Numbered from the stretch's first letter, positions 730-34,936 are shown. The stretch: DNA of 51,907 nucleotides from a virus (IMGVR_UViG_3300045988_151376); one strand, 5' to 3'. Made by a program: numbers and translations. The notes: generated from the sequence alone by a model not told the origin.

Positions 730-1476
730 TCATTCAAGAGAAGACTGAAGAACCTGAACAACCGAATCGCGCCATTGAATTTGGAACCCTGAGTGGTTGT
801 TGCGCTCGTAAGGTCGGTTCTCGCCGTGAGCGGAGCCTGCTTCTGTCAGTTGCCACTGCTTGCCAACTTTTTTCTGGAATCCGAGCTTTTCTAGGAGCTT
901 GTTAACCTTGGCTGCGGCGGTTGTTGGGATGAGGCGTTTGCCGATCTCGGTCGGGTTGAGTAAGGCTGTCTCCGTTACTGGCACTGATGGAATGAGAGCG
1001 CGAAATGGGTCCGTTGGCATACCAATGTCCTTTTGGACCACCGAAAGCGCGTGCGCTGCCGCTCTTTCCTGCGGAACGTTGAACGTCTTGGCGAGCGTGT
1101 TCGCGATGAAAAAGGCAGCCTGAGCGCGCTCTATTGAGTAGGCGAGAGACTGCTGCGTTTTCTCATGCTGTGAACGAAGCTCGGTTTCCATTGCGTTAAA
1201 GGCGTTGATGTACTTGAGCTTCCATTCCATCGCTTTGCCTCCAGTAAAGCCCATAACGAGCAGACTGAAGCCGTCGCGGTTCATCAAAAACTCGGGGAAC
1301 GTTTTTCCACGGGAAGAGTAGGAACTTTCGATGAAAAATTTGGCGGCGGAATTTTCCGCCGTGAGAATTTCTCGGATGGCATAAAGCACATCTTTGTGTT
1401 CTTTCCCAAAGTTGTCAGCGATCTGCCGACTGCTCACAACTACTTGGTCGTTTACGACTTCAACAATTCCATTCAT
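730..1476 (-). CDS. Rha-family phage regulatory protein or antirepressor (paralogue 1)
   Basis: N-terminus VVSSRQIADNFGKEHKDVLYAIREI...FLMNRDGFSLLVMGFTGGKAMEWKLKYINAFNAME matches the Rha-domain pattern. Confidence 0.85.
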   Translation of the reverse strand: MNGIVEVVNDQVVVSSRQIADNFGKEHKDVLYAIREILTAENSAAKFFIESSYSSRGKTFPEFLMNRDGFSLLVMGFTGGKAMEWKLKYINAFNAMETELRSQHEKTQQSLAYSIERAQAAFFIANTLAKTFNVPQERAAAHALSVVQKDIGMPTDPFRALIPSVPVTETALLNPTEIGKRLIPTTAAAKVNKLLEKLGFQKKVGKQWQLTEAGSAHGENRPYERNNHSGFQIQWRDSVVQVLQSSLE

Positions 1477-1493: not shown

Positions 1494-1530
1494 TAAAAGA
1501 AAAGCCCCGGCGCTTTTCGGCGTCGAGGCT
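1494..1530 (-). terminator. Intrinsic terminator. Member of a two-copy repeat with 10612..10647
   Basis: aaaagccccggcgcttttcggcgtcgaggct: 10-bp imperfect stem with an A-run on the plus strand. Near-identical sequence occurs downstream of the paralogue at 10671. Confidence 0.55.
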
Positions 1531-1552
1531 GTTGGTTAGAAATAGGTATCAG

Positions 1553-2449
1553 TTACGCGGGCTGATGAGCCAGCCAGTGACGGTAGCAGGGCAGGTCTTC
1601 CATCCTGTAGCCGTGCTTGCTCAGGTCGTTCTCAATGAAGTAGAGATGCATGCACGTGAAGAACTCATAGAACTGCGCGGCAAGCGGCGATTTCATCTGA
1701 TTAAGCGTGTTGTAGAACGCCTGAATCTGCGGGCGGAAGAGGTACCGCAGGCAGTAGATTCCGGCGAGAAGGTTCTTTGCCTCTGCGTCCGTGAGGTAGA
1801 AGGCAGGAATCCTTTCCGGGATTCGCTCATCGCGGTAGGTCGTTGCCTCGATGCGCTTGCGTTCGGACTCTTCTTTCTGAAGCCACTGTTCGCGGCTCAT
1901 GATCGGAGCCTTCTGGATGAAGTCGAGAGCCGCTTCGAAGTCGCGCTTCTGCAGGCAGGTGTACCGCGGGATGCGGAAATGGTCCTTGAGGGCGGAGTAG
2001 ATCACGCGGAAGTTCTTCCCGATGCCGGCGGCGCGACGTCCGACTGCGCGCTGAATCTCGCGCTGTTGGGCCTCGTCGATGTAGTCGGGGCCGCCCTCGC
2101 CTGAGAGCGCCTTTTCCATCCGGTCGAACTCATCGATATAAGCCCACTTGAACTTGTCAGCTTTCTCGCCGGTAAAGCCCATGGCGAGGAACGTGAAGCC
2201 TGCTTTCGTGAGGGCATACGCCTTGTACTTCACGATGCCCTTTCCGAGGTTGGAAGGGCGCTCAAGCTCTACGGGGATGAAGTTCCCGCGACGATCTTCC
2301 GGCGTGCGCTGGATAATGTCTTCGACGTCGCGAAGGACGTGACGATGATTCTTTTCAAAGACGGCTGAGATGTTCGTCGTAAGGACGGTAGCAAGACCGT
2401 TGCAGACAGTGATAGCGGGCGCAGTGGTGCGCGTTTTGACAGCGTTCAT
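1553..2449 (-). CDS. Rha-domain antirepressor with shared ORF6C/KilA-C-like C-terminal domain (paralogue 2)
   Basis: Start moved to the ATG at 2449, which has the SD aaggaga 6 nt upstream. Rha motif FEKNHRHVLRDVEDII...LTKAGFTFLAMGFTGEKADKFKWAYIDEFDRME. The C-terminal half is shared with 4577..5398 and 10671..11555. Confidence 0.85.
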   Translation of the reverse strand: MNAVKTRTTAPAITVCNGLATVLTTNISAVFEKNHRHVLRDVEDIIQRTPEDRRGNFIPVELERPSNLGKGIVKYKAYALTKAGFTFLAMGFTGEKADKFKWAYIDEFDRMEKALSGEGGPDYIDEAQQREIQRAVGRRAAGIGKNFRVIYSALKDHFRIPRYTCLQKRDFEAALDFIQKAPIMSREQWLQKEESERKRIEATTYRDERIPERIPAFYLTDAEAKNLLAGIYCLRYLFRPQIQAFYNTLNQMKSPLAAQFYEFFTCMHLYFIENDLSKHGYRMEDLPCYRHWLAHQPA

Positions 2450-2634
2450 GCTTGTCTCCTTGAGAGGTTTAAGAACCTCGCTCCCACTTTCGACGGTGGT
2501 GGGCGAGGCATCGCGGGGTCGAAAACCGATCTCAAGGTATCGGCCACCCGAAGGTGCCCGCGAGCCTCTCCCATAAAGGAGACTTTCACGCAAGTCTGTG
2601 ATTTTCTCTAGAAGCCCAAAATTGGGCACCTAAG

Positions 2635-2722
2635 AAAAAAAGCCGCTTCCAACGGTCGGCGGCTTTCTTGCGCCTTGAGATCAGTCGGGTTTCGACGCCC
2701 GTCCCCGTCGCTTTCACGGGGC
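2635..2722 (-). ncRNA. Candidate ~90-nt terminated leader RNA or small RNA (copy A)
   Basis: Runs from the predicted transcription start just downstream of the promoter to the hairpin agccgc-N12-gcggct plus U-run. Contains the hairpin ccccg-tgaaagcga-cgggg. Duplicated at about 5576..5660. Confidence 0.4.
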
Positions 2723-2728
2723 AGGGAT

Positions 2729-2757
2729 ATTCTGCCCGATCTTAGGCGCTGTGTCAA
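2729..2757 (-). promoter_or_regulatory. Sigma70-type promoter (TTGACA-17-CAGAAT), leader copy A
   Basis: Minus strand: TTGACA (2752..2757), 17-nt spacer, CAGAAT (2729..2734). Confidence 0.6.
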
Positions 2758-2790
2758 AATACTATATGCGTTCGTACATCGGAGAAACAG

Positions 2791-3615
2791 ATGCCTGAAG
2801 TCGTTGCCTCAAATGCTGATATTGAAGTCTTGGATAACTGCAGTCACAAGAATGGGCATCGTTACTGGCTAGCGAAGGAGTTCATGCTACGTTTGGGATA
2901 TAGCTCTTGGGACCAGTTTAGGAGGGTCATTAACAGGGCTATTGCTTCATGTGCAAAGTTAGAACTGGACGTCTCTGAGGCATTTGAACAGATCCGTAGC
3001 GACGATGGCCGACTGGTTGACTACAAGCTGAACCGGTTCGCTTGCTTTCTGATTGCGACTTACGCTAACGACAAAAAGCCTGAAGTGCAACGCATCAAGA
3101 TAGCCCTGTCTGCCTTTGCTGAGACAGTTATCCAAGCCGCAATCGACTCGAACAGCGTCCTCCGTATAGAGACGCGAGAAGATCTAAAGTCTGCGGAAAA
3201 GCTCTTGAGCTCAGCCGCAAAGGAAGCCGGAGTTAACTCAGGCGAGTTTGGGCTATTTAAAGACGCAGGATTCCGAGGCATGTACAACATGTCTCTCGCG
3301 GATCTCCGGGCCCATAAGGGCGTGATTGGTAACGGACGTAAGTCTCCAGTTTTATACGACTTCATGGGCATAACGGAACTGGCGGGCAACTTGTTCCGAG
3401 ATACGCAAACCGCGGAGCGCATTCGCAGTAAAAATGTTCGTGGGCTTAGAGAAGCCGCAGATTCTGCACGAACGGTTGGTAAAGAAGTGCGCGACATGAT
3501 GATCCGAAATAGCGGTGTCAAGCCGGAAGACTTACCCGTTGAGGAAGACGTCAAGAAAGTGAAGACTCGTCTCAAGAAGGCCAGTCGAACCATGATCAAA
3601 CATGACAAAAATTGA
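2791..3615 (+). CDS. dinD: DNA-damage-inducible protein D (DinD)-like protein
   Basis: Collinear similarity, from memory, to E. coli DinD (HMGSTELAANLFRATQTEEKL versus FMGITELAGNLFRDTQTAERI here). RBS ggagaaacag before the ATG. Opposite strand to its neighbours. Confidence 0.75.
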   Translation: MPEVVASNADIEVLDNCSHKNGHRYWLAKEFMLRLGYSSWDQFRRVINRAIASCAKLELDVSEAFEQIRSDDGRLVDYKLNRFACFLIATYANDKKPEVQRIKIALSAFAETVIQAAIDSNSVLRIETREDLKSAEKLLSSAAKEAGVNSGEFGLFKDAGFRGMYNMSLADLRAHKGVIGNGRKSPVLYDFMGITELAGNLFRDTQTAERIRSKNVRGLREAADSARTVGKEVRDMMIRNSGVKPEDLPVEEDVKKVKTRLKKASRTMIKHDKN

Positions 3616-3801
3616 ACGCATTTTGGCCAATCACGTCATTTTGATGCCGTCTGCCTAAGCGCGCATCCACGTGGGAGGCGGTTTTCACTGCTTATCCTAG
3701 AAGGCAAGCGGCATCAAGATGAAGCCCCTGGGCGGGGCTGAAATCCAAATTAAGTTTGGGGTTTATGATGATTTTTTACTCTTCATTCTGGCGGCCCCTT
3801 T

Positions 3802-3945
3802 TTAGCTGATGACGACGGACTGACGGTCTTCGAGAGCCGCGCCGGGAATGACCTCACCGGATTTTAGGGCCTTTTTGAGGGCCACTTTATCCGGGTCGAT
3901 GGTCGTTTTGACGTGCTTGAATGCGTCGGCGGCTGCGCAGCTTTT
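3802..3945 (-). pseudogene. Start-less remnant duplicating the C-terminal ~41 aa of the Gp157-like gene at 7213..7704
   Basis: The frame translates to DAFKHVKTTIDPDKVALKKALKSGEVIPGAALEDRQSVVIS*, versus EAFRRIKTTIDPDKVALKKALKDGETIPGAALEERQSVVIS* at 7213. It is bounded upstream by an in-frame TAG and has no start codon. Confidence 0.75.
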
Positions 3946-4049
3946 CTAGCTTTCTTTGCACGTGCTGACCGCGTTTTGATTGCTCTACGTGCATCACGAC
4001 TCAATTCGTGCTTAGGGCGCCGATGTGGGTGGGAGGGAATACTCATCAT
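3864..4049 (-). CDS. Doubtful 61-aa basic ORF that runs out of frame into the Gp157 remnant
   Basis: Good RBS (gaggag 6 nt upstream of ATGATG), but the C-terminal half is an out-of-frame reading of the remnant. Possibly a decayed fusion. Confidence 0.25.
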   Translation of the reverse strand: MMSIPSHPHRRPKHELSRDARRAIKTRSARAKKARKAAQPPTHSSTSKRPSTRIKWPSKRP

Positions 4050-4061
4050 GCAGGCTCCTCA

Positions 4062-4337
4062 TTACGCCCCGCGGGACTTGTAGAAATTGTGCCAATCCTG
4101 AACGAGTTGGCTGAATTCCTTGGTCTTGCTGATTTTTTTACTTAGCCACGATTCAAAATCCTCAAGTGAAGGATCTTTGACGCAGCGGCTGTACCATTGG
4201 TAAACGATAATTGCCTCACGTCCGCGGGCTGCGATTGCTTCTTGGGTCGCTAATTCGAGTCTTGCGCCCAGAGCAACATTCAAAGCGGCGCCGCCAACTA
4301 AGTGTTGCAGCGCGGTGGTGATGACTTTGACGTTCAT
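4062..4337 (-). CDS. Hypothetical protein (91 aa)
   Basis: ORF with RBS aggag. No recognisable domain. Confidence 0.55.
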   Translation of the reverse strand: MNVKVITTALQHLVGGAALNVALGARLELATQEAIAARGREAIIVYQWYSRCVKDPSLEDFESWLSKKISKTKEFSQLVQDWHNFYKSRGA

Positions 4338-4348
4338 TGGCTGAACTC

Positions 4349-4510
4349 CTAAAAAAGTACGTAACCATTAAGAACTGCCCACTGCATGAGCAGGCAGAGT
4401 GAGATACCGAGAGCGCTGATACCGGCGCCAGTCAGAAAGGCGCAGAAGATGATTGCGGTATCGCTGAACCCAGTACGTTCGTTGTGGCCGAGAAGTTTTT
4501 TCAACGTCAT
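4349..4510 (-). CDS. Possible small membrane protein (53 aa; below the ORF-track cutoff)
   Basis: Hand translation MTLKKLLGHNERTGFSDTAIIFCAFLTGAGISALGISLCLLMQWAVLNGYVLF*. The stop overlaps the RBS of the next gene. Its own RBS is weak. Confidence 0.3.
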   Translation of the reverse strand: MTLKKLLGHNERTGFSDTAIIFCAFLTGAGISALGISLCLLMQWAVLNGYVLF

Positions 4511-4521
4511 GTCGTTCTCGG

Positions 4522-4558
4522 AAAAAAGAAAGGCCCCGGCAGGTGAGTGCCGAGGCCT
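4522..4558 (-). terminator. Intrinsic terminator after the BRO-N antirepressor gene
   Basis: Minus strand: ggcctcggca-ctcacc-tgccggggcc followed by tttctttttt. Confidence 0.6.
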
Positions 4559-4576
4559 ATTAAGAAAATTAGGTGA

Positions 4577-5398
4577 TTACGCGGTTAAGCGCTTGGGCTG
4601 TTGCGAAGCCCAGTGTTGGTAGCACGAGAGATCTTTCACCGAGTATCCCTGCTTGGCTAGAGCATCTTCCATAAAGCCAAGTCCCAGATCATTAACGGCT
4701 TCCCAAAAATGAGCTGCGAGAGGGGATTTCACGCGGCGCAAGAGCGCTAAAAAGAGATTCAGATCGTCTCGAAAGAGATATCGCCAGTAATAGATAAAGA
4801 CAACGATTTTCTCGGCCATAGCCTCGTCGATCACGATTGACCCTTCGGGAATTGCCGGAGCCGAAAGCTGCGGCTTAAGTGTGCATGTCTCGATGAGTGC
4901 GAGTGCTGCTTTCATCTGATCGTGTCTTAGGTCTTTGTAGCTCGCGATCTTGAAGTAATCGTAAAGAGCGTTGTAGACCGTCTGGTAGTGAACCGATGAG
5001 TTCTTTGCGCGTGACTTGATAGCTTTGCGGATCTCGTACTGCTCTGTAGTCGTGATCAGCGCGGACTGGTCTGTTTCGTAGCGTCCCGTGCGGCGAATCG
5101 CCGGCAGAACTTCCGACGTTACCCAGCGCTTGAAGCGTTTTGCGCTCTCCAGCTTGGAGCCGAAGATCAGTGCGTAGAGGCCGGACTCGGTGACGCAGTT
5201 GACGGTTTGCGTGCGGCCCATGCTGTCGGTGATCTCGGCCTTGACGATGTCTTCAGGGTCGACAAGATCGGCAATCGCCTTACGCGGATTGCTGTGTGAG
5301 AGCGCCTTGCAGATGTCGGTTGCGACAAAAAGAGGCGCTTCAGGCGTGCCAAGGGTGCGGACGGAAGAATTCTCAAAAGAGAAAGTGAGTGCAGACAT
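4577..5398 (-). CDS. BRO-N-domain antirepressor with the same shared C-terminal domain (paralogue 3)
   Basis: N-terminus FENSSVRTLGTPEAPLFVATDICKALSHSNPRKAI...SGLYALIFGSKLESAKRFKRWVTSEVLPAIRRTG fits BRO-N. The C-terminus aligns with paralogues 2 and 4 (VKSPLAAHFWEAV...GYSVKDLSCYQHW). SD aaggaga. Confidence 0.85.
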   Translation of the reverse strand: MSALTFSFENSSVRTLGTPEAPLFVATDICKALSHSNPRKAIADLVDPEDIVKAEITDSMGRTQTVNCVTESGLYALIFGSKLESAKRFKRWVTSEVLPAIRRTGRYETDQSALITTTEQYEIRKAIKSRAKNSSVHYQTVYNALYDYFKIASYKDLRHDQMKAALALIETCTLKPQLSAPAIPEGSIVIDEAMAEKIVVFIYYWRYLFRDDLNLFLALLRRVKSPLAAHFWEAVNDLGLGFMEDALAKQGYSVKDLSCYQHWASQQPKRLTA

Positions 5399-5695
5399 TT
5401 AGGTCTCCTTAGATGCGTTGAATGCCGCTCGCACGGTTCCAATCGTGGCGGGCGGGCTTGTAGGTTTGGAACGCCGCTCTAAGGAAACGGCCCCTCGAAG
5501 AGGGTCCTACAAGCCCACCCATAAAGGAGGCTTGTCGATGACGTAACTGCCGGTTACGCCATCCTGCACATCAAATAAAAAGCCGCTTCCAACGGTCGGC
5601 GGCTTTATTGTGCGCCTTAGAGTCGGGGTTCCAATCCCGTCCCCGTCGCTTTCACGGGGCACGAACATTGTGCCCGATCTTAGGCGCTGTGTCAA
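5399..5695 (-). promoter_or_regulatory. Structured 5' leader of antirepressor paralogue 3 (copy B), same architecture as 2450..2757
   Basis: e1 CUCUAAGG (plus 5615..5622), terminator (5576..5606), e2 CCUUAGAG (plus 5477..5484), e3 UCUAAGGAG containing the SD (plus 5405..5413). Confidence 0.6.
5667..5695 (-). promoter_or_regulatory. Sigma70-type promoter (TTGACA-17-CACAAT), leader copy B
   Basis: Minus strand: TTGACA (5690..5695), 17-nt spacer, CACAAT (5667..5672). Confidence 0.6.
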
Positions 5696-5740
5696 AATGG
5701 AAAAGGAGCTTGCGACAAACGTCGCGAGGGGAGTCTTGCC

Positions 5741-6307
5741 ATGAATAATCTTTATCGATCTCTTATTTCGTTGGCTACCGTGTTCCCGTTGAGCATCACG
5801 TTCAGCTATTTGTACTCGGATTGGCTGCTGAGCCTGTTGCCTGATGTGGTCTCTCATTTCTTAGAAGCTCACCTGAACGCGCAGCTGGTATTCGTTTTGT
5901 GCGCAGTGGTGTTCAACTATGCTCTTGGGCAAATAATCCTGATCTACCTCGGGTGGGTCGCGACGAAGTTGGATCGACTCCCCGTGAAGCTAACAAGCGT
6001 CAAAGAGCTGGGCACAGATAGCCTGTTGGCCTATCTGCCATATGTTCTTCCTTTGTTCATGATCCAGGGAGATCGCCAAGAGCCGACGGGGTGGTTGCTT
6101 GGCGGGATCTTGTTGTTGATCCTCTCGTGGGCGTCAATGACGATTGCTTTTTCCCCATTGCTGCGAATTTGTGGAATGCGCTTTTTTGAGGCCACGCGAC
6201 CAGACGGCACTACTGTGACGGTGTTGATCAAAAATCCCAGCCTTAGGCCGTTGCGATTGACGGAAGCTTCAAGTATTTCGGATAACTGCTTGTATGGATT
6301 GAAATGA
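5741..6307 (+). CDS. Four-TM membrane protein, first gene of an AT-rich two-gene island (KwaA-like architecture)
   Basis: Four hydrophobic segments (SLISLATVFPLSITF, LVFVLCAVVFNYALGQIILIYLGWV, LLAYLPYVLPLFMI, WLLGGILLLILSWASMTIAF) and a soluble tail. The stop overlaps the next start (ATGATG). Opposite strand to its neighbours. Confidence 0.7.
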   Translation: MNNLYRSLISLATVFPLSITFSYLYSDWLLSLLPDVVSHFLEAHLNAQLVFVLCAVVFNYALGQIILIYLGWVATKLDRLPVKLTSVKELGTDSLLAYLPYVLPLFMIQGDRQEPTGWLLGGILLLILSWASMTIAFSPLLRICGMRFFEATRPDGTTVTVLIKNPSLRPLRLTEASSISDNCLYGLK

Positions 6308-7197
6308 TGGATAACGCGGAATCTCTGTTTGTCTCTGGAGCCTCTTTTCGTGGGGTGTCGACCTGCGTTCGGCGTCTCAAACTCATGTCTGATGCGGCCA
6401 ATGATATAAGCGCCGTTGTCAGAAGCCAATACGAAGAGTTTTCAGAGCTAAGCGAAGTTGAATTCGACGGTCGTTACAAGGTGGAATCAGACGAATGCTT
6501 TTCCATCAGCGACTATGTTGATGCCGATGGAACATTCGCGTCGTTTCAGGAAATCATTAATGGTAACTGTAGCGATGTACTGAAAAACACGGATTCCTTA
6601 AGCGAATGCCGTGCTCTATTGTTCCGAGCGCCACAATTACCTAATCTGGTGCTAATTCAGCGCTTCACCAATTCTTATCTCGCTAAGCGCGATCGTTGGT
6701 TTGGTTTCGGTTGCAGCGACTCAGTCAGAAAAATCGAAGAGTCCGCATTCACTATTGCATCGTCGCTTTCAGGGGTCTATGACCTCGAGTCAAAAAGATT
6801 GCGTTTTAAAAGTGTTCAGAACATCCGCGCGGTCCTTCCGGGGTTTTCTGATCAGTATGCGCCCGGAGCGGACAAGACGACCATTACAACCTTCTTCCGA
6901 CAGCCAATCTTCGATCAAGATAGTGCAGACAAAGTCCAAGCGCTTGATTCGATGAAGGTGGCTCGCTTGGTATGGCTACTAAAAGAGCAGGACGCCCCTC
7001 TCGAAAGAAGGCTGGCTACTTTTCAGAAATACGATGAAATTCTCAACCTGAACTCAGTCAGAAATGGAAAAATCATTGTGAGCACAGAAGTGCGCAAAAT
7101 GGAGGTGATTCTTCGCATTTTGTTGGGGGATGTGTTTGAAGACAATGGACGAATCTATTTAAGCAACTCGAAGAGGCCAATCGAACGATTTGCGTGA
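6304..7197 (+). CDS. 297-aa soluble partner of the membrane protein (KwaB/DUF4868-sized; family unverified)
   Basis: Translationally coupled to 5741..6307. AT-richer than the backbone. No motif I can name with certainty. Confidence 0.7.
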   Translation: MMDNAESLFVSGASFRGVSTCVRRLKLMSDAANDISAVVRSQYEEFSELSEVEFDGRYKVESDECFSISDYVDADGTFASFQEIINGNCSDVLKNTDSLSECRALLFRAPQLPNLVLIQRFTNSYLAKRDRWFGFGCSDSVRKIEESAFTIASSLSGVYDLESKRLRFKSVQNIRAVLPGFSDQYAPGADKTTITTFFRQPIFDQDSADKVQALDSMKVARLVWLLKEQDAPLERRLATFQKYDEILNLNSVRNGKIIVSTEVRKMEVILRILLGDVFEDNGRIYLSNSKRPIERFA

Positions 7198-7212
7198 TGA
7201 GCTTGTCTTTAC

Positions 7213-7704
7213 TTACGAGATCACCACGGACTGGCGTTCTTCGAGCGCCGCTCCGGGGATGGTCTCGCCGTCCTTGAGCGCCTTCTTCAGCGCTACTTTG
7301 TCCGGATCGATCGTCGTCTTGATGCGCCTGAAGGCTTCGGGAAGGGCCTCAAGGTCGAGCACCTTGACGGCTTGCGTCGTGCCGATGCGAAGAGACACCA
7401 TGACGCCTTTGACCTTTCCGCCCATAGCTTCGAGCGCGGGCATCATGTAGGCCTTCAGGCGCTCGGACTTGTTCTCCAGTGCCTTACGGCGCTTTGCAAG
7501 ACGCTCTTCTTCAGCCTTGATAGCTTCGGCTTCGGCCTTGAGTTCGCGGCAGTAGCAAGCCGTCCCTTCGAGCTTTTCAGCTGCTGCGGTGGTGTACTCC
7601 GCGTAGGCGGCAAGGGCTTCGCCATCGACCTCACCCGTATCGGGATCGGCGTCGAGGCGGTCGAGAAGTTCGCGCAGCGCGCCGGGGATTTCGTAAATTT
7701 TCAT
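7213..7704 (-). CDS. Siphovirus Gp157-like protein
   Basis: Start moved to the ATG at 7704 (MKIYEIPGAL...). Coiled-coil centre and C-terminus IDPDKVALKKALKDGETIPGAALEERQSVVIS fit the Gp157 family. Classic neighbour of Sak4-type ATPases. Confidence 0.7.
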   Translation of the reverse strand: MKIYEIPGALRELLDRLDADPDTGEVDGEALAAYAEYTTAAAEKLEGTACYCRELKAEAEAIKAEEERLAKRRKALENKSERLKAYMMPALEAMGGKVKGVMVSLRIGTTQAVKVLDLEALPEAFRRIKTTIDPDKVALKKALKDGETIPGAALEERQSVVIS

Positions 7705-7717
7705 TTTGAGTGCTCGC

Positions 7718-7745
7718 AAAAAAGCCCCGGTGGTTGACCGGGGCT
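7718..7745 (-). terminator. Intrinsic terminator
   Basis: agccccggt-ggttg-accggggct: perfect 9-bp stem. The plus-strand A-run gives a U-run on the minus transcript. Confidence 0.65.
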
Positions 7746-7754
7746 GAATGGTTG

Positions 7755-8393
7755 TTAGAAGGGCATGTCGTCATCGACTGGCGGATCAGGCGGCATAGAA
7801 GCTGCGCGGGAGGTCTGTGCCTGCGTTCCTCCGTCAAGCTTGCGCACCGCCTTAGGATGCTCCTTCAGGTTCTTAAGAAGCGCGGGGATAGCCGTGGCTT
7901 CAGTCGCGCCCGAATCGATCTCCTTAGCGGTTCGACCGGTGGCCGGATCGAATGCGCGTCGGATCGTCATGTCGTTGGCGATCTTTACCTCCCCTAGATA
8001 GAGGTATTCGCGGGGCTCTGCTTCAAGGACGAGGCCGATTGGCTTTCCTTCGATCGCCTTTCCGCGATAGCCCTTCACGATCTCGCCTTTCATGGTGCGT
8101 ACCTTGCCTTCGACCCATTCGACCGACTCGGTTTTGGAGCAAAAAAGCATGGACTGGAAGATACCCATACCAAAAGCATCTTCGCCGTCGCTTTTGACGA
8201 TGCAAAGCGAGAGCCACGCCGTGGCTCCATCATTCGATTCGAAGTAAAACCGGAGCATCGCGGCTCCGTTCTTCGTTTCGTACTGCTCTGCCTGCAGGAT
8301 CTTTCCTTTGTAAGCCCCAGTTTCAAAGATGCGGGCCGGGGTTTCGCTCCTGATGGCAGATACCTTGTCGGCCTTGATAGTTCCGATGATCAT
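7755..8393 (-). CDS. ssDNA-binding-type protein (DUF669-like position) with a canonical SSB acidic tip
   Basis: The C-terminus ends PPVDDDMPF, compared with E. coli SSB DDDIPF. It lies in the Gp157 / ATPase / ssDNA-binding triad. Confidence 0.65.
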   Translation of the reverse strand: MIIGTIKADKVSAIRSETPARIFETGAYKGKILQAEQYETKNGAAMLRFYFESNDGATAWLSLCIVKSDGEDAFGMGIFQSMLFCSKTESVEWVEGKVRTMKGEIVKGYRGKAIEGKPIGLVLEAEPREYLYLGEVKIANDMTIRRAFDPATGRTAKEIDSGATEATAIPALLKNLKEHPKAVRKLDGGTQAQTSRAASMPPDPPVDDDMPF

Positions 8394-9109
8394 TTAGATT
8401 CCTTTGCCGATTCTTCGGCGGGTGTTGAAATTCCGTAGTACTCGCAGATGGCCTTGTCGACCTCTGCAAGGTCGTTGTCGATCTCGTCTTCTTCGAACAT
8501 CCCAAGAGGAGATTTCACGGTGTCGAAGCCTGAGTTGTGAGTGCGAAAGAGGTACCTGCCCTGATCGACCGCTGTTCGAAGGACGGTTGTGAACATCCCT
8601 TCAATGACGATCTTTTCGTCCAGCATCTGCCCGATCGTTTTGATGCGCGTCACGCCATCCTTGACCACCGTGTGCGCAAGGAGATAGACGCGTTTTGCAT
8701 CGTCGAGCTCTGAAGCGGTCTTGGCGAGATCGAACCCGCAGCCGCCGATCTGATTCCACTTGTCATAGCCTCCGACGTTCCGCAACTCCATCATTCTGAA
8801 GGATAGGAAGTACTGCCAATCGTCGATGACGATGATCTCCTTTGAGGTCTCCTTCATGGACTGAAGGATGAAGGGGACGTTGGACGTGCAGAGGATGTTG
8901 CCGCCACTCAGGCGTGTGAGCTCTTCTCGCTCTCGCTTGTTCTCGACAACTTTTTTAGTTCCGAGCTGAACAAACTTCCAGCCAGTTGACCTGAAAGGAA
9001 GCGGTTTTTTGACCGGTTGGATGATTAGCGTTTTGGTTGGATCGATATTGCGAAGGGAGCAAGTCTTGCCTGACCCACTTTCGCCCAAAACAAGCGTTCC
9101 GTAGCTCAT
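8390..9109 (-). CDS. P-loop ATPase, Sak4/AAA_24-like recombination protein
   Basis: Walker A VLGESGSGKT and Walker B-like IIVIDDWQY. Overlaps the downstream gene by 4 nt. Confidence 0.75.
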   Translation of the reverse strand: MSYGTLVLGESGSGKTCSLRNIDPTKTLIIQPVKKPLPFRSTGWKFVQLGTKKVVENKREREELTRLSGGNILCTSNVPFILQSMKETSKEIIVIDDWQYFLSFRMMELRNVGGYDKWNQIGGCGFDLAKTASELDDAKRVYLLAHTVVKDGVTRIKTIGQMLDEKIVIEGMFTTVLRTAVDQGRYLFRTHNSGFDTVKSPLGMFEEDEIDNDLAEVDKAICEYYGISTPAEESAKESK

Positions 9110-9127
9110 GTATGATTCTCCGTGTGG

Positions 9128-9436: not shown

Positions 9437-9454
9437 CGGAAAAATCTCCCTAGT

Positions 9455-9484
9455 AAAAAGGCGAGCCCCTGGAGGAAGCTCGCC
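9455..9484 (-). terminator. Intrinsic terminator
   Basis: ggcgagc-N11-gctcgcc with a plus-strand A-run. Confidence 0.55.
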
Positions 9485-9602
9485 TTGGTGTGTTTCGTTG
9501 CTTTGGTCTTGCGCTCTCTCGCTCGGGCGTTGCGCGCTGCGCATGCCCTGCGCTGGCGCTTGCTGAGCTGAGAGCGATGCCGGTGCGGGTGCTGGGGGAT
9601 GG

Positions 9603-10670: not shown

Positions 10671-11555
10671 TTACGCGGGCTGATGGCTCAGCCAGTGTTT
10701 GTAGCAAGGAAGCTCCTTGACGCTGTATCCGATCTTGTCGAGAGAGGCTTCAAGGTTCAGCCAGTTGAAGTCGTGAACGGCTTCCCACATGGATGCAGCG
10801 TAGGGCGAATCGACGCTTCGGAGGAAGTCCACATAGCGCTCGAGGTTTGCGCGATGCAGGTAGCGCCACGTGTAGACGAGAGACCGTAGTTCCTCCATGA
10901 AGTGCGCCTTGACGGTGTAGACCTTCGGCGGGATCGGCTCGTCGTGATAAGTGGCAGCCTCGATGCGCTTCATCTGAGCCTTTTCATGCTCGATGCATTC
11001 TTCACGCGTCATGATTTTGACTGACTGGATGAAGGAGATTGCGGCCTCGAAGTCTTTTTCGAGAATCCGCTTGTAGCTGGGGACGTTGAAATGATTTTTC
11101 AGCGCCGAGTAAATCGTTTGATAGTTGATCCCGTAGCCTTCGGAGCGGCGGCCTACTGCTCTTTGGATTTCGCGTTGCTGTGCGTCGGTGATATATGCCG
11201 GAGCGGGAGGATTCTTCAGCGCCTGTTCCATCCGCTCGAACTCATCGTAGAAAGCACACTTGAATTCGAGCGCCTTAGCACCGGTGAAGCCCATAGCCAA
11301 TAGACAGAAGCCCTTGCGATCCATCCAGTACGCAGGAACCTTTCGAGTAGCACCCTTGTCGTTCAGACTGACTGTTTCTGAGTATCGCGCAAAATTGCGT
11401 AATACTTGAAGTTCTTGATTTTTTGCAATTAGGTCATCTACCGCGCGAACTACGTCGCTGTGCTTTTTGCCAAAGTATTCTGCAACTTTGAAGCTGGACG
11501 TAACCGCACGGCCTTCAACCACACGGAAGGCATTTTGAACAATGTTCTGAGCCAT
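10671..11555 (-). CDS. Rha-domain antirepressor with shared C-terminal domain (paralogue 4)
   Basis: Start moved to the ATG at 11555 (SD aaggag). Rha motif FKVAEYFGKKHSDVVRAVDDLI...WMDRKGFCLLAMGFTGAKALEFKCAFYDEFERME. C-terminus GYSVKELPCYKHWLSHQPA. Confidence 0.85.
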   Translation of the reverse strand: MAQNIVQNAFRVVEGRAVTSSFKVAEYFGKKHSDVVRAVDDLIAKNQELQVLRNFARYSETVSLNDKGATRKVPAYWMDRKGFCLLAMGFTGAKALEFKCAFYDEFERMEQALKNPPAPAYITDAQQREIQRAVGRRSEGYGINYQTIYSALKNHFNVPSYKRILEKDFEAAISFIQSVKIMTREECIEHEKAQMKRIEAATYHDEPIPPKVYTVKAHFMEELRSLVYTWRYLHRANLERYVDFLRSVDSPYAASMWEAVHDFNWLNLEASLDKIGYSVKELPCYKHWLSHQPA

Positions 11556-11760
11556 TGTGAACTCCTTTACATATTTGATTAATCGCCCCTTTTGAGAGGG
11601 CGGCCAAGCGCTCAAAACCGTGTAAAGGCGGCGGGCATATTTCCCTTTCGGGTTTTTTATTAGCCTCACGCTCAGCCATGAGCTGAGCTATCCGCGCCCA
11701 TAGGGCTACAGATACAAAAAAATCCGCATGACTGACAGGGCGGAATCCGCTTTACAGGTG
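11556..11760 (-). promoter_or_regulatory. 5' leader of paralogue 4 with its own anti-SD/SD pair
   Basis: Minus RNA: e2 CCUUUACA (plus 11621..11628) is complementary to UGUAAAGG at the SD (plus 11564..11571). An upstream UGUAAAG (plus 11750..11756) precedes a weak hairpin with U7. Confidence 0.45.
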
Positions 11761-11966
11761 TTTTGAGCACCTGAGCGCAGTATGCCCGAATCTGCAAGCG
11801 ATGTCAAAATTCAGGTTCAAGCCGCCTCCCGGAGCGTGCCTTGCATGGGGGCGCGGCATTCTTGGAATAAATGCCGGGGAAGCGGCCTGAAGCTGGGCTC
11901 TCATAGGAGAGCATGAAAAAGCCCCCGCACCTTTCGATGCGAGGGCCTGATTGTTCGTGTCAGCGA

Positions 11967-14014: not shown

Positions 14015-14725
14015 CTATCGTCTTCGGCGATAGGAGCGACGGTGTTCAACCATAACGCCAATGACGGAAAGTCTTTCCGTGCGCGAGTTGTATATCGGAT
14101 AGTCCTCATTAAGTGGGATCAATTCGAAGATTTCATTTCCATACTCGTCATATCCGCGGGGACGATATTTTTTGAATGTTGTTTCCATGTCGTCCGAGAA
14201 CTTACTGACCCTTGTTGCAATTACAAAATCACCAGGCATTGGATGAATAGTGGGATCAACAACGATGATGTCTCCCTCTTGGAAATCTGGTTCCATCGAA
14301 CTCCCAATAACCTTGAGGGCGTAACAATCATCGGGCAGGTCCATGTCAACCCAAATGAAATCCCCGCTTTCGATTGCTGCCTGCCTGGCAGCAATTTGCC
14401 CTGTTGATGTGGGATCTCCTGCCTGTGCATAGGAAAGGATGGGAATCCTTTTCATCCTCCCACGAATAGGCTCAACATTGCTCTGGTTAGCGGGAGGCTG
14501 GTCGTTTGATACAAGAGGCTCTCCTACGCCGTTAACGATCCAGTTTTGATTGAGAGGCAATTTGGAGCAAATAGCGAGAGCCGGAGCGGACTTCATATTT
14601 TTCGTCTTGCCCGACACCCAACTTGCCACAGAGGGCTGCTTGATGCCCGCCAACGCGGCTAGCTCCGATTGCGAGATATTGAAGTGCTGAAGCACCCAAG
14701 AGATTCTTTCTGAAAGCGTTGTCAT
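14015..14725 (-). CDS. CI-type repressor: XRE HTH plus S24 (LexA-like) self-cleaving peptidase domain
   Basis: N-terminal HTH SQSELAALAGIKQPSVASWVSGK. C-terminal ALKVIGSSMEPDFQEGDIIVVDP...TFKKY carries the Ser/Lys dyad context. ATG at 14725 with almost no leader. Confidence 0.9.
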   Translation of the reverse strand: MTTLSERISWVLQHFNISQSELAALAGIKQPSVASWVSGKTKNMKSAPALAICSKLPLNQNWIVNGVGEPLVSNDQPPANQSNVEPIRGRMKRIPILSYAQAGDPTSTGQIAARQAAIESGDFIWVDMDLPDDCYALKVIGSSMEPDFQEGDIIVVDPTIHPMPGDFVIATRVSKFSDDMETTFKKYRPRGYDEYGNEIFELIPLNEDYPIYNSRTERLSVIGVMVEHRRSYRRRR

Positions 14726-14751
14726 GATAGACAAGCCTATCGGTTCGTGTG

Positions 14752-32862: not shown

Positions 32863-34936
32863 CGCTATCGACAAACTTGTTATCTCGCTAGGCTTTGACA
32901 GCGTCGAGCTCAACGAAGGACTGCGCAAGGCCTCCGGCGCGATCGCCGACTTCGGCAAGCGCGTGGAGCTCGACGGCCGCGCGCTGGACCGCCTCGCGGC
33001 GACGGCTTCGAAGACGGGCCTGATGATGGGCGGCGTCTCGGACGAGGTGGCTGAGCGCGTCATGTCGATCGGCACGGCCGGACAAAAGACCTCGCTTGTC
33101 ATGGGCCGGGCGATGGACGGCATCTCCGCTCGTGTCGGCAAGGTTGGGGCGCTTCTGAAGACCGCCCTGGGGCCCGTGCTCGCAGTCTTCGCGGGCGGGA
33201 AGATCTTCAGCGGCCTCTCGCAGATGGGCGAGAGCCTCGACGTGCTGAGCGAGCGCACGGGCGTCGCCGTGGACAAAATCGACGCATGGGCCAAGGCGAA
33301 CCGGGACGCAGGTGGCTCTGAGGAGGCTTTCAAGTCCGCGCTCGAGAACTGGACGGTCGAGAAGGGCCGCTCTGCAGACGACTTCTTCCGCATGGGTGAG
33401 GCCGTCAAGGGCATGAGCCAGCAGCAGGCCGCCTACTTTATGCGGGCGATGGGCCTGAGCCAAGACGCCGCGGCGGTCTTCACGAAGTTCACGGACAAGG
33501 CGTCGTCCGCCGCCAAGGCCTACGAAGGCATGGCGATGACCAGCGAGCAGGCCAAGGCCGCGCGCGAGATGAACATCCGCTGGCGCCAGTTCACCGATCA
33601 GGCGCAGGCCCTCGGGAATGTGCTTGGGGTGACGGTACTCCCGGTCGTGAACCGCGTTCTCAAGGTGCTCGGCGACGGCGTGGCCTTCCTGAGGGAGCAC
33701 AGCAAGGGCGTGAAGCTGATCCTCGCCGGGCTGGGGGCGGTGCTCGCCGTCACTTACGGCCGGTCGATCATCCAGGCGATCGCGACAACCTCGACTTTCT
33801 TCAAGACGCTGAAGGCCGGTCAAGGCGTCATGGCGGCGCTCAATGCGACGATGCTCGCGAATCCCGTCGCGGCGCTCGTGGCAGGCGTCCTCGCGCTCTG
33901 CCTTGCCCTCGACGACCTGCTCGCCTTCCTTGACGGCGGGAACTCCCTTCTCGGGAAGTTCCTGAGCTTCATCGGCTTTTCTGATAAGCAGATCGACGCC
34001 TTCCGAAAGAGCCTGCTGAACTTCTTGCAAGTGCTCGGCGGCATCCCGGAGAAGATCGTCGGGGCGATCCAGTCCGCTTGGGACGGCGTCAAGGATTTCG
34101 GCAAGTGGGTCGGCGGCCTCTTTGACGGCGTCGACTTTTCGGGGGTCGGCAAGGCCCTTTCGGTGGGGATCCTGCTGCCGCTGAAGGTGATCGGGAAAGG
34201 CATCGTCGCGGTATTCGACGGCCTGGAGGTCTTCTTTACCGATCTGCCAACGAAGATAGCTAAGGGCATCCCCAAGGCGCTATCTTCGCTTTCCGGGCTT
34301 TCTGATGAAGTCGGCGCCGCCTTTATCAGGGCCTTCCACTCGGCCATCGATTGGGCGAAGAAGGCGTTTAAGGCGCTTGTTGGTTTGATCGGCAAGTGGG
34401 TCGCGAATGCACTCAATATCGGCGGCAAAGTGAAAGGGGTCGTAAGCGGAGCTGTTGATAGCGTTACGGACGGCGTGAAAAACGCCATGGGCGGTATCGC
34501 GGACATTTTAGGCTTCGACGCAAAAGGAAAGCCGAAAGAGGCATCAGCTCCGGCGCAGGACCCCAGCGGGAAGCCTGCGCCGGATGGTGGAGCCGCGGAC
34601 GGCATCAAGGACCGTGTGAAGGGCGTCTTTGGCGGCATCGCGAGCTTCTTCAGGGGTGGCGACGAAGCCAAGGCGCCCGCGGCGGATGCGTGGGACTGGG
34701 GCCGATACGCCTCTGCGCCGACTCAGGCGGCGGCGGGGGCTATCGCGGCATCGCAGGCGAAGACCTCGCAGGCTCCGGCCGTGGCGAATCAAATGGAAAT
34801 GAACGTCGTGAACAACATCCAGACGAACGGCAGTCCGGAAGACGTGGGCAAGGCCGTCGGCGGGGCGATGGACAACGCCCTTAGCCGCCGCAACAGGATG
34901 CTGGTCGCGGCGCAGTCCGGCGTGATTTCAAAGTGA
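32855..34936 (+). CDS. Tape measure protein
   Basis: 693 aa, Ala/Gly-rich with hydrophobic central segments, after the chaperone pair. Confidence 0.9.
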   Translation: MANAIDKLVISLGFDSVELNEGLRKASGAIADFGKRVELDGRALDRLAATASKTGLMMGGVSDEVAERVMSIGTAGQKTSLVMGRAMDGISARVGKVGALLKTALGPVLAVFAGGKIFSGLSQMGESLDVLSERTGVAVDKIDAWAKANRDAGGSEEAFKSALENWTVEKGRSADDFFRMGEAVKGMSQQQAAYFMRAMGLSQDAAAVFTKFTDKASSAAKAYEGMAMTSEQAKAAREMNIRWRQFTDQAQALGNVLGVTVLPVVNRVLKVLGDGVAFLREHSKGVKLILAGLGAVLAVTYGRSIIQAIATTSTFFKTLKAGQGVMAALNATMLANPVAALVAGVLALCLALDDLLAFLDGGNSLLGKFLSFIGFSDKQIDAFRKSLLNFLQVLGGIPEKIVGAIQSAWDGVKDFGKWVGGLFDGVDFSGVGKALSVGILLPLKVIGKGIVAVFDGLEVFFTDLPTKIAKGIPKALSSLSGLSDEVGAAFIRAFHSAIDWAKKAFKALVGLIGKWVANALNIGGKVKGVVSGAVDSVTDGVKNAMGGIADILGFDAKGKPKEASAPAQDPSGKPAPDGGAADGIKDRVKGVFGGIASFFRGGDEAKAPAADAWDWGRYASAPTQAAAGAIAASQAKTSQAPAVANQMEMNVVNNIQTNGSPEDVGKAVGGAMDNALSRRNRMLVAAQSGVISK

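What the first reader, a model, noticed from the sequence alone, without database searches (positions are those of the whole stretch)
5405..5622. Copy B of the switch shows compensatory changes in all three elements (CUCUAAGG / CCUUAGAG / UCUAAGGAG)
Upstream of the BRO-N antirepressor the SD context is UCUAAGGAG (plus 5405..5413). The mid-leader element is CCUUAGAG (plus 5477..5484), again in the loop of a gccg/cggc hairpin. The element inside the terminated RNA is CUCUAAGG (plus 5615..5622). Relative to copy A (CAAGG), all three elements carry UAAGG or its complement. Complementarity is thus maintained within each copy but differs between copies. Co-variation of three separated 8-mers is hard to explain without RNA pairing. 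It would also make each decoy specific for its own ant gene.
Basis: seen in the sequence. Interest (0 to 1): 0.8.

Follow-up and report, generated by a model that had tools for sequence, protein, structure and literature searches.

The report
P1-type c4 antisense lock on antirepressor
The three matching 8-mers are real and do mark RNA pairing, but they belong to an already known phage device: the c4 antisense RNA that masks an antirepressor gene's ribosome-binding site, preceded by an IsrK-like small RNA carrying the same target sequences. This prophage carries three such devices with different pairing sequences.

Summary
On the minus strand, CUCUAAGG (5622..5615), CCUUAGAG (5484..5477) and UCUAAGGAG (5413..5405) sit exactly where stated. 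The middle element is not just a leader hairpin. It is the hairpin-2 loop (b') of an Rfam C4 antisense RNA (RF01695, 53.0 bits, cut-off 45) at 5526..5444. Copy A (2578..2495) is a second C4. The layout (promoter, a1-b1 small RNA with intrinsic terminator, c4 with b' and a', a2, 22 nt, b2 = Shine-Dalgarno, AUG) matches phage P1 immI as annotated in GenBank. It also matches the Gifsy-1 isrK locus. Across 19 distinct alleles, including P1 and Gifsy-1, cognate pairing averages 7.5-7.8 nt for b and 6.6-7.0 nt for a; non-cognate averages 4.3-4.9 nt. P1, P7, SJ46 and D6 show the same compensatory pattern, the classical basis of P1/P7 heteroimmunity. The "decoy" idea agrees with published IsrK genetics but is untested here. 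This is a new member of a known kind. Side results: Rfam isrK, c4-a1b1 and C4 all hit the Gifsy-1 locus, and the window's sRNA-Xcc1 element is a third, c4-like module.

The parts
5667..5695 (-). Module B promoter: TTGACA, 17-nt spacer, CACAAT
   Evidence: Consensus scan, 10 of 12 matches. The core is identical in copy A.
5576..5660 (-). Module B IsrK-like small RNA: hairpin 1, a hairpin presenting a1 in its loop, single-stranded b1, then the intrinsic terminator
   Evidence: Rfam isrK hit of 32.5 bits, E 1.9e-5, below the gathering score of 50. Fold.
5628..5634 (-). a1 (UUGGAAC), complementary to a'
   Evidence: Duplex with the b' loop is -8.1 kcal/mol.
5576..5605 (-). Intrinsic terminator (AAGCCGCC...GGCGGCUU stem plus U-run)
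   Evidence: Identical in copy A.
5444..5526 (-). Module B C4 antisense RNA: outer stem, hairpin 1, hairpin 2 and junction
   Evidence: Rfam RF01695, 53.0 bits against gathering score 45. MFE -47.4 kcal/mol, z = -6.45. Fold covariation.
5466..5472 (-). a' (GUUCCAA) in the multiloop junction of C4
5436..5442 (-). a2 (UUGGAAC), immediately 3' of C4
   Evidence: Same position as a2 in P1.
5405..5413 (-). b2 (UCUAAGGAG), the Shine-Dalgarno region of the ant gene, 22 nt after a2
   Evidence: Duplex with the b' loop is -11.1 kcal/mol. The 22-nt a2-b2 gap equals that of P1.
4577..5398 (-). BRO-N/ORF6C antirepressor gene controlled by module B
   Evidence: Pfam Bro-N 7.6e-22. PHROG anti-repressor Ant 5.9e-43.
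2458..2757 (-). Module A (paralogous copy): promoter 2757..2729, a1 2696..2690, b1 2680..2673, C4 2578..2495 (b' 2537..2530, a' 2524..2518), a2 2494..2488, b2/SD 2465..2458, ATG 2449 of the Rha/ORF6C gene (to 1553)
11553..11807 (-). Module C (sRNA-Xcc1 type, same logic): promoter 11807..11779, a1 11767..11761, b1 11755..11750, sRNA-Xcc1 11677..11594 (b' 11628..11622, a' 11617..11611), a2 11596..11590, b2/SD 11570..11562, ATG 11555 of the Rha-family gene (to 10671)

Best explanation
Module B is a P1-immI / Gifsy-1-isrK type RNA control cassette for an antirepressor gene. A sigma-70-like promoter (5695..5667) starts a transcript whose first ~85 nt form a small RNA. This RNA carries a1 in a hairpin loop and b1 in a single-stranded stretch, and it ends at an intrinsic terminator. 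Transcripts that read through continue into a C4 antisense RNA (5526..5444) and then into the BRO-N ant gene. C4 folds into a stable three-way junction that displays b' in the hairpin-2 loop and a' in the junction. C4 binds a2 (directly 3' of itself) and b2 (the Shine-Dalgarno sequence), in cis or, after processing, in trans. This blocks ribosome binding and keeps Ant off. The a1b1 RNA carries the same two target sequences, so it competes for C4 both within the read-through RNA and as the free terminated sRNA. That competition relieves repression. The a and b sequences act as an address: modules A, B and C in this prophage carry different addresses and should not cross-regulate. What is shown here: the elements, their complementarity, their covariation across many alleles, the C4 fold and family membership, and the identity of layout with P1 and Gifsy-1. 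What is inferred: expression and processing of the RNAs, the direction of regulation in this phage, the sponge role of the a1b1 RNA, and what the Ant protein inactivates.
For: Family membership: Rfam C4 hits above the gathering score for both copies. The C4 fold is supported by MFE z-scores of -6.45 and -4.51. It is also supported by covariation on 28 distinct sequences: 91.6% of cells paired, 12 of 20 pairs changed on both sides, score 0.428 against 0.197 in shuffles (0 of 500 reach it) and 0.08-0.14 in slid controls.

Layout: the P1 GenBank record annotates a1, b1, c4, a2 and b2 in the same order and with the same 22-nt a2-b2 gap. It notes 'repression of icd ant translation'. Rfam finds isrK (79.3 bits), c4-a1b1 (48.1) and C4 (69.0) side by side in Gifsy-1, with b2 on the anrP Shine-Dalgarno. 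In P1 it finds c4-a1b1 (51.0) and C4 (68.8), plus a sub-threshold isrK hit that includes a terminator-like hairpin.

Covariation of the pairing elements: 19 alleles were compared. Cognate versus non-cognate longest Watson-Crick matches are 7.47 vs 4.58 nt (b'-b1), 7.84 vs 4.28 (b'-b2), 6.95 vs 4.94 (a'-a1) and 6.63 vs 4.27 (a'-a2). Composite a...b patterns occur 3 times per module against about 0 expected. P1, P7, SJ46 and D6 differ almost only in the a and b triplets, in a compensatory way, and a and b assort independently.

Specificity: cognate a2+b2 duplexes sum to about -20 kcal/mol, against -7.5 to -8.8 for A/B cross combinations.

Experimental support from homologues: c4 represses ant in P1 and underlies P1/P7 heteroimmunity (reviews). 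IsrK supplied in trans activates anrP translation 139-fold, and the G28A and G31A sRNAs are inactive. C159U and C162U derepress, and combining them with the complementary IsrK changes restores the wild-type RNA conformation and lowers basal expression relative to the C-to-U single mutants. By coordinates, those four positions are a1:a' pairs. The MFE of the full read-through leaders pairs a1..b1 with b'..a' in cis, like IsrK 'structure A'.
Against: There are no expression, processing or genetic data for this phage. The lineage is known only from metagenomes and has no match among isolated phages. The upstream sRNA scores below the Rfam gathering thresholds: isrK 32.5 and 33.7 against 50, and c4-a1b1 10.3 against 46.7. 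Its homology to IsrK and to the P1 a1b1 region therefore rests on architecture rather than on a curated score. The IsrK authors explain their data through translation of an upstream ORF ('orf45') and translational coupling, not through a c4-like repressor. Here such an ORF is not conserved across alleles. In P1 the direct target is icd and ant is affected indirectly, whereas here b2 sits on the ant Shine-Dalgarno itself. Ten of 56 unique modules fall below 6 nt for at least one of the four pairings. Four of these have unrelated DNA directly after c4, four have a G.U pair in b1, and two carry single changes in a1 or a2.
Confidence: 0.8

Rival explanations
1. The device is a purely cis-acting leader switch. 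e2 is an anti-Shine-Dalgarno element that folds back on e3 within one mRNA. e1 acts as an anti-anti-SD element or decoy. No separate trans-acting antisense RNA is involved.
For: All elements lie on one transcription unit. a2 begins within 2 nt of the 3' end of C4, which favours cis binding. The MFE of the whole leader uses a1b1:b'a' pairing in cis. The IsrK study found cis effects of the same mutations.
Against: e2 sits in a stable, independently folding C4 RNA (z = -6.45) whose fold covaries. Gifsy-1 has a stable processed species, STnc1160, at this position. Cis and trans action are not mutually exclusive.
Confidence: 0.12
2. The main role of a1/b1 is P4 CI-like control of transcription elongation. 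C4 binding to a1/b1 on the nascent RNA changes termination at the terminator about 10 nt downstream. This would autoregulate read-through into c4 and ant, rather than a1b1 acting as a sponge.
For: b1 ends 9-12 nt before the terminator stem in every allele. IsrK in trans also raised a transcriptional fusion 8-fold. The IsrK authors themselves draw the analogy with P4 CI, seqA and seqC.
Against: No alternative anti-terminator pairing involving b1 is predicted, and b1 is unpaired in the sRNA MFE. Constitutive STnc1160 did not reduce the IsrK effect in Gifsy-1. The translational effect (139-fold) far exceeds the transcriptional one.
Confidence: 0.06
3. The matches are chance similarity, or a by-product of all three elements containing Shine-Dalgarno-like AAGG(AG) sequences, with no RNA pairing involved.
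For: A single 8-mer is not rare in the window: 1.08 expected, 2 seen. All b elements end in GG.
Against: Composite patterns are found 3 times against about 0 expected. There are 17 different b' loops and 10 different a' junctions, each with matching partners at conserved positions. The a elements have no SD-like content.
Confidence: 0.01

Closest known systems
Phage P1/P7 immI: c4 antisense RNA with a1-b1 and a2-b2 targets, controlling icd-ant (Rfam C4 RF01695 and c4-a1b1 RF03163)
   Same: The order a1, b1, c4 (b' in the hairpin-2 loop, a' in the junction), a2, b2 is the same. Element lengths are 7 and 8 nt. a2 abuts the 3' end of c4, the a2-b2 gap is 22 nt, and b2 is at a ribosome-binding site. 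Specificity changes by compensatory substitutions in the a and b triplets. An antirepressor is the regulated output.
   Different: Here b2 is the Shine-Dalgarno of the ant gene itself (BRO-N or Rha type), with no icd-like upstream gene. In P1 the target is icd, and ant is controlled indirectly (from my knowledge of Biere, Citron and Schuster 1992, not checked here). The prophage is a CI/LexA-type siphovirus, not a P1-like plasmid prophage. It carries two C4 modules and one sRNA-Xcc1-type module instead of one. The upstream a1b1 region scores only 10.3 bits against c4-a1b1.
Gifsy-1 isrK - 'orf45'/STnc1160 - anrP locus (Rfam isrK RF01394; Hershko-Shalev et al. 2016, PMC4825925)
   Same: A short sRNA ends at an intrinsic terminator, and partial read-through produces the antirepressor mRNA. 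a1 is in the loop of the second hairpin. A C4-family RNA lies between the sRNA and the ant gene (C4 69.0 bits in Gifsy-1). b2 is on the Shine-Dalgarno of the antirepressor. The sRNA has been shown experimentally to activate translation in trans.
   Different: The window's sRNAs are sub-threshold for isrK (32.5 and 33.7 against 50). The published model invokes translation of orf45 and translational coupling. The corresponding ORF is not conserved among the alleles examined here.
APSE phages of Hamiltonella: c4 plus isrK upstream of a BRO-N gene (PMC7313666)
   Same: This is a bioinformatic report that c4 a'/b' match the upstream non-coding region of the adjacent BRO-N gene, with an isrK-family sRNA present. 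It is the same gene type as module B.
   Different: That report does not connect isrK functionally to c4, and it describes a single module. Some APSE phages also carry sRNA-Xcc1 upstream of another gene, which the report treats as unrelated.
Satellite phage P4: CI RNA with seqA and seqC
   Same: A processed small RNA from the leader pairs with complementary sequences both upstream and downstream of itself on the same transcript, to give immunity. The IsrK authors drew this analogy.
   Different: In P4 the outcome is premature transcription termination, and the RNA belongs to a different family. Nothing about P4 was tested here.

Membership tests
C4 antisense RNA (Rfam RF01695) | Scores above the curated gathering threshold of the covariance model over its full length | tested here: met
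   Copy B scores 53.0 bits and copy A 54.2 bits against a gathering score of 45, both covering model positions 1-87.
C4 antisense RNA (Rfam RF01695) | Three-way junction fold: long outer stem, short hairpin 1, hairpin 2 with a large loop, and a ~7-nt junction. The fold should be supported by compensatory changes. | tested here: met
   The MFE reproduces the fold, with z = -6.45 and -4.51. 55 of 56 unique copies could be parsed into a hairpin-2 loop and a junction from their MFE folds. Covariation score is 0.428 against 0.197 in shuffles, and 0 of 500 shuffles reach it.
P1 immI-type c4 system | b' and a' are complementary to a downstream a2-b2 pair, with b2 at the ribosome-binding site of the first downstream gene | tested here: met
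   a2 at 5442..5436, b2 at 5413..5405, AUG at 5398. The spacing equals that of P1. Cognate versus non-cognate matches are 7.84 vs 4.28 nt for b2 and 6.63 vs 4.27 nt for a2.
P1 immI-type c4 system | A second copy of the targets (a1-b1) lies upstream of c4 on the same transcript | tested here: met
   a1 at 5634..5628 and b1 at 5622..5615. Cognate versus non-cognate matches are 7.47 vs 4.58 nt for b1 and 6.95 vs 4.94 nt for a1.
P1 immI-type c4 system | c4 is processed to a ~77-nt RNA (5' end made by RNase P) and represses in trans | not testable with these tools
   This needs RNA mapping and genetics. The only related observation is a conserved CCAC-like tail 3' of the outer stem (invariant columns in A2).
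P1 immI-type c4 system | The regulated operon encodes an antirepressor | tested here: met
   Bro-N plus ORF6C, with PHROG 'anti-repressor Ant' at 5.9e-43. The function of the protein itself was not tested.
isrK Hfq-binding RNA (Rfam RF01394) | Scores above the curated gathering threshold | tested here: not met
   32.5 bits (copy B) and 33.7 bits (copy A) against a gathering score of 50, with E about 1e-5 in a local search. The P1 a1b1 region is likewise sub-threshold at 35.1 bits. The architecture is the same: two hairpins, a1 in the loop of the second, then a terminator.
c4-a1b1 motif (Rfam RF03163) | Scores above the curated gathering threshold | tested here: not met
   10.3 bits against a gathering score of 46.7 for copy B, and no hit for copy A. 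Gifsy-1 (48.1) and P1 (51.0) pass.
isrK-type regulation | The short terminated sRNA activates translation of its own read-through mRNA in trans | not testable with these tools
   Shown only for Gifsy-1. Here the promoter, the terminator and complementarity are present.

The most novel reading that the evidence does not exclude
This reading has three parts. (1) One prophage runs three orthogonal RNA 'address locks', two of C4 type and one of sRNA-Xcc1 type. Each gates a different antirepressor-type gene (Rha/ORF6C, BRO-N/ORF6C, Rha). (2) sRNA-Xcc1 (RF02221), so far treated as an integron-borne or virulence-associated trans-acting sRNA, would in fact be a second structural class of c4-like immunity RNA with the same a1b1 / a'b' / a2b2(SD) logic. 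(3) IsrK and the P1 a1b1 region would be the same element, namely a terminated sRNA that titrates c4.
Probability: 0.45. Interest if true: 0.55.

Novelty: new member of a known kind. Interest (0 to 1): 0.35.

Why it matters
For the finding itself, the value is correct annotation. Two 'leader switches' in an uncultured human-gut prophage are C4 antisense RNA modules of the P1 immI type. Their differing 8-mers are the specificity determinants, as in P1/P7 heteroimmunity.

The comparison also links three separately curated Rfam families into one mechanism. The isrK, c4-a1b1 and C4 models all hit the same Gifsy-1 locus. The published IsrK compensatory mutants map onto a1:a' pairs. This suggests that IsrK's activating effect could be titration of a c4-like repressor.

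The sRNA-Xcc1 element behaves as a c4 analogue in at least eight alleles. If that holds generally, many annotated 'sRNA-Xcc1' copies in prophages, integrons and genomic islands of proteobacteria may be local regulators of adjacent Ant/Rha-type genes rather than virulence sRNAs.

Multiple orthogonal modules in one phage give a natural set of programmable two-site RNA repressor and anti-repressor pairs.

Tried and rejected
1. Searched for close relatives among isolated phages with megablast on window 1-12000 and blastn on the leader. There was no match, so the lineage could not be named.

2. Tried to use MAFFT alignment A2 directly for structure work. It misaligned hairpin 1. I replaced it with an nhmmer search plus per-sequence folding, and with an alignment fitted to a covariance model.

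3. Tested whether an orf45-like upstream ORF starting at the conserved AUGG of c4 is conserved and coupled to the ant start. It is not: several alleles have ACG or CUG at that position, and stop positions range from inside b' to beyond the ant start. I rejected it as a defining feature.

4. Looked for extra a-b target sites elsewhere in the window that could be trans targets. There are none beyond the three per module.

5. Looked for sub-threshold C4, isrK or c4-a1b1 signal in module C. There is none, and my C4 model R1 did not hit it either. sRNA-Xcc1 is therefore an analogue or a very distant relative, not a C4 member.

6. Tried to read the primary c4 papers and the P1 genome paper (PMC312442, PMC196329, PMC523184). 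They are not held. Statements on RNase P processing and on Rho-dependent polarity in P1 rest on my own knowledge.

7. Considered an anti-terminator involving b1. None is predicted.

Full report
**Observation**

The gene at 4577..5398 lies on the minus strand. It encodes a Bro-N plus ORF6C protein (Pfam 7.6e-22) that matches PHROG 'anti-repressor Ant' families.
- CUCUAAGG at 5622..5615
- CCUUAGAG at 5484..5477
- UCUAAGGAG at 5413..5405, followed by AUG at 5398

The first element lies 5' of a strong terminator hairpin with a U-run, at about 5605..5576. The second lies in the loop of a GGCCG/CGGC hairpin.

One 8-mer alone is not remarkable. CTCTAAGG is expected 1.08 times in the window and is seen twice. 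The composite TTGGAAC-N(3-30)-TCTAAGG is different: it occurs three times against zero in 100 shuffles. The copy-A composite GTCGAAA-N(3-30)-CTCAAGG also occurs three times, against 0.03 expected.

Aligning the two copies shows an identical promoter core, first hairpin and terminator. In the upstream small RNA the differences fall mainly in the a1 loop and in b1. The two C4 RNAs themselves are more diverged.

**What it is**

A scan of the window against Rfam at gathering thresholds gives C4 antisense RNA (RF01695) twice. One hit is at 5526..5444 (53.0 bits) and one at 2578..2495 (54.2 bits); the cut-off is 45. The GUUCCAA element is the junction between hairpin 2 and the outer stem.

The GenBank record of phage P1 annotates the same arrangement:
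- a1 (7 nt), b1 (8 nt), the 77-nt c4 RNA, then a2 (7 nt) starting 3 nt after c4
- a 22-nt gap, then b2 (8 nt), then the icd start codon

In module B the a2-b2 gap is also 22 nt.

Permissive Rfam scans of the upstream terminated RNA give a sub-threshold isrK hit in both copies (32.5 and 33.7 bits, cut-off 50). They give only 10.3 bits for c4-a1b1 in copy B.

**Reference loci tie the pieces together**

In Gifsy-1, Rfam finds three families side by side:
- isrK at 79.3 bits
- c4-a1b1 at 48.1 bits, above its cut-off
- C4 at 69.0 bits

The C4 hit covers the region described in the literature as 'orf45' or STnc1160. The b2 element AUCACCGGAGG is the Shine-Dalgarno of the antirepressor gene anrP.

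In P1, Rfam finds c4-a1b1 (51.0 bits) and C4 (68.8 bits). It also gives a sub-threshold isrK hit (35.1 bits) that includes a terminator-like hairpin between b1 and c4. That hairpin is conserved in P7, SJ46 and D6.

P1 immI, the Gifsy-1 isrK locus and the window's modules therefore share one architecture.

Scans of viral, genome and metagenome collections with scaffold sequences gave about 60 related loci, mostly from human gut. An nhmmer profile found 73 c4 copies. Of these, 56 unique modules with full flanks fall into 19 distinct (b', a') alleles, including P1 and Gifsy-1.

The geometry is conserved:
- a1 lies 13-16 nt before b1
- a2 lies 0-2 nt after c4 (5 nt in Gifsy-1)
- b2 lies at about +27 to +35
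- the start codon lies at about +38 to +54

The longest Watson-Crick match between each c4 and its own flanks was compared with its match to the flanks of other alleles:

| Pairing | Cognate (nt) | Non-cognate (nt) |
|---|---|---|
| b'-b1 | 7.47 | 4.58 |
| b'-b2 | 7.84 | 4.28 |
| a'-a1 | 6.95 | 4.94 |
| a'-a2 | 6.63 | 4.27 |

Non-cognate pairs reach 7 nt or more in only 1.5-3.6% of cases. There are 17 different b' loops and 10 different a' junctions.

Ten of the 56 modules fall below 6 nt for at least one of the four pairings. Four have a G.U pair in b1 (the L014 type). Four have unrelated DNA directly after c4 and so lack a2/b2. Two carry single changes in a1 or a2 (L025 and L039).

The C4 fold itself covaries. 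91.6% of cells are paired and 12 of 20 pairs change on both sides. The score is 0.428 against 0.197 for shuffles (0 of 500 reach it) and 0.08-0.14 for slid controls.

**Classical precedent**

An alignment of P1, P7, SJ46 and D6 leaders is 93% identical. The remaining differences fall almost entirely in the a and b triplets, and they are compensatory.
- b: GUUAGUG/CACUAAC in P1, GAUUGUG/CACAAUC in P7, ACUUACG/CGUAAGU in SJ46 and D6
- a: UUGACAG/CUGUCAA in P1 and D6, UUAGCAG/CUGCUAA in P7 and SJ46

So a and b assort independently.

**Mechanism**

For P1, the GenBank annotation and reviews state that trans-acting c4 RNA represses Ant synthesis by pairing with a2/b2 around the ribosome-binding site.

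For Gifsy-1, Hershko-Shalev et al. reported the following:
- the isrK promoter drives both a short terminated IsrK and a read-through mRNA that is not translated
- IsrK supplied in trans raises anrP translation 139-fold
- IsrK carrying G28A or G31A is inactive
- C159U and C162U in the long RNA derepress (484 and 926 units, against 4)
- the complementary double mutants restore the wild-type conformation

With +1 placed at L017 34316, A107 is the A of the conserved AUGG at the 5' edge of C4. G28 and G31 lie in a1 (UUGGCGU), and C162 and C159 lie in a' (ACGCCAA). The sums 28+162 and 31+159 are equal, as expected for an antiparallel helix. The published compensatory mutants therefore tested a1:a' pairing.

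In the window, the MFE of each full read-through leader pairs a1..b1 with b'..a' in cis. This happens at the expense of the C4 fold, with z = -5.6 and -5.8. It resembles IsrK 'structure A'.

Predicted duplexes:
- Cognate: -11.1 kcal/mol for b'-b2 and -8.8 for a'-a2 in module B; -11.9 and -7.7 in module A
- Cross: -5.1 and -2.4 for c4 A on module B targets; -7.1 and -1.7 for c4 B on module A targets

The two modules should therefore be largely orthogonal.

The steps not shown for this phage are expression and processing of the RNAs, cis versus trans action, the sponge role of the a1b1 RNA, and the target of the Ant protein.

**Rivals**

- A strictly cis switch is possible but unlikely, given the independently folding and covarying C4 RNA and its trans action in P1.
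- A P4 CI-like effect on termination at the terminator next to b1 cannot be excluded. IsrK raised a transcriptional fusion 8-fold. However, no anti-terminator structure is predicted.
- An orf45-like coupled upstream ORF is not conserved.
- Chance is excluded.

**Context**

The window is a temperate siphovirus-like prophage. It encodes:
- a CI/LexA-type repressor (14015..14734)
- Sak4, SSB and Gam
- replication genes
- large terminase, portal, major head protein and tape measure protein

It has no match among isolated phages. Many related contigs carry two or three c4 copies.

**Third module**

The Rfam sRNA-Xcc1 hit at 11677..11594 (70.6 bits) has the same topology as C4 and the same logic. 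Reading 5' to 3' on the minus strand:
- promoter at 11807..11779
- a hairpin with CUCAAAA in its loop, which is a1
- GUAAAG, which is b1
- a hairpin followed by a U-run
- the sRNA itself, with CCUUUAC in the hairpin-2 loop and UUUUGAG in the junction
- CUCAAAA directly after it, which is a2
- 19 nt further on, GUAAAGGAG, which is b2 and the Shine-Dalgarno
- ATG at 11555, the start of a Rha-family gene

The composite pattern occurs 3 times against 0 expected. At least eight alleles from other contigs show three-way b covariation, with b2 ending in GGAG in all but one.

Rfam shows no C4 or isrK signal in this region, so sRNA-Xcc1 is a separate family by sequence. In the searchable literature, only two papers mention sRNA-Xcc1 together with c4. 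Neither connects them.

**Verdict**

The system is a new member of a known kind: C4 antisense RNA with an IsrK-like a1b1 sRNA. An arrangement with c4 and isrK upstream of a BRO-N gene has already been reported for APSE phages.

Interest in the finding as stated is modest. The side observations are more interesting but were only partly followed up. They are that IsrK equals the a1b1 sRNA, that 'orf45'/STnc1160 equals C4, that sRNA-Xcc1 is a c4 analogue, and that one prophage carries three orthogonal modules.

Noticed in passing
window 11553..11807 (minus strand): The Rfam sRNA-Xcc1 hit (11677..11594) is a third, c4-like module in front of a Rha-family gene. a1 is CUCAAAA in a hairpin loop and b1 is GUAAAG, followed by a hairpin with a U-run. 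The RNA has b' CCUUUAC in its hairpin-2 loop and a' UUUUGAG in the junction. a2 is CUCAAAA and b2 is GUAAAGGAG, the Shine-Dalgarno. At least eight alleles in other contigs covary in b. No paper found links sRNA-Xcc1 to c4.
   Followed up: partly
L017 (Gifsy-1 NC_010392) 34076..34330, minus strand: Rfam isrK, c4-a1b1 and C4 all hit the isrK locus. The C4 hit covers the published 'orf45'/STnc1160 region. The published compensatory mutants G28A/C162U and G31A/C159U map onto a1:a' base pairs. Rfam does not place isrK in the C4 clan.
   Followed up: yes
L018 (P1) 4280..4312; also P7, SJ46 and D6 (alignment A3): A conserved terminator-like hairpin (AACCGCAG...UGCGGUAUUUUU) lies between b1 and c4 in P1-like phages. 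The P1 a1b1 region gives a sub-threshold isrK hit (35.1 bits). P1 may therefore also make a short a1b1 sRNA.
   Followed up: partly
window 5741..7197 (plus strand): KwaA (5741..6307, PADLOC 1.7e-13) and KwaB (6304..7197, 8.4e-25) form a Kiwa anti-phage defence pair. They are transcribed divergently from the module B promoter. A Mu Gam-like gene (7213..7719, minus) lies immediately beside them.
   Followed up: partly
window 2791..3615 (plus strand): A DinD-like protein lies between modules A and B, divergent from module A. It matches PADLOC candidate defence gene PDC-S13 (1.1e-74) and NCBIfam 'DNA damage-inducible protein D' (165.7 bits, below the cut-off of 242).
   Followed up: no
window 730..1476 (minus strand): A fourth Rha-type gene follows the module A gene and a terminator (about 1525..1495). 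It has no c4 module of its own.
   Followed up: no
L016:2235, L033:867, L010:11535, L064:4149: In these modules unrelated DNA starts right at the 3' end of c4 (L064 keeps a2 but has lost b2), so the downstream target set is missing or incomplete. L016 and L033 share the same foreign sequence. The c4 3' edge may be a recombination boundary, or these may be orphan c4 copies that act in trans.
   Followed up: no
L010, L039, L042, L049, L003, L014, L016: Many related contigs carry two or three c4 copies within a few kb. L010 has three, with different addresses. Multi-module arrays are therefore typical of this gut phage lineage.
   Followed up: partly
L014 10283..10372: A divergent c4-like RNA (37.7 bits with model R1) has an unusually long hairpin 1, and its loops could not be parsed. 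It may be an intermediate form between C4 and other classes.
   Followed up: no
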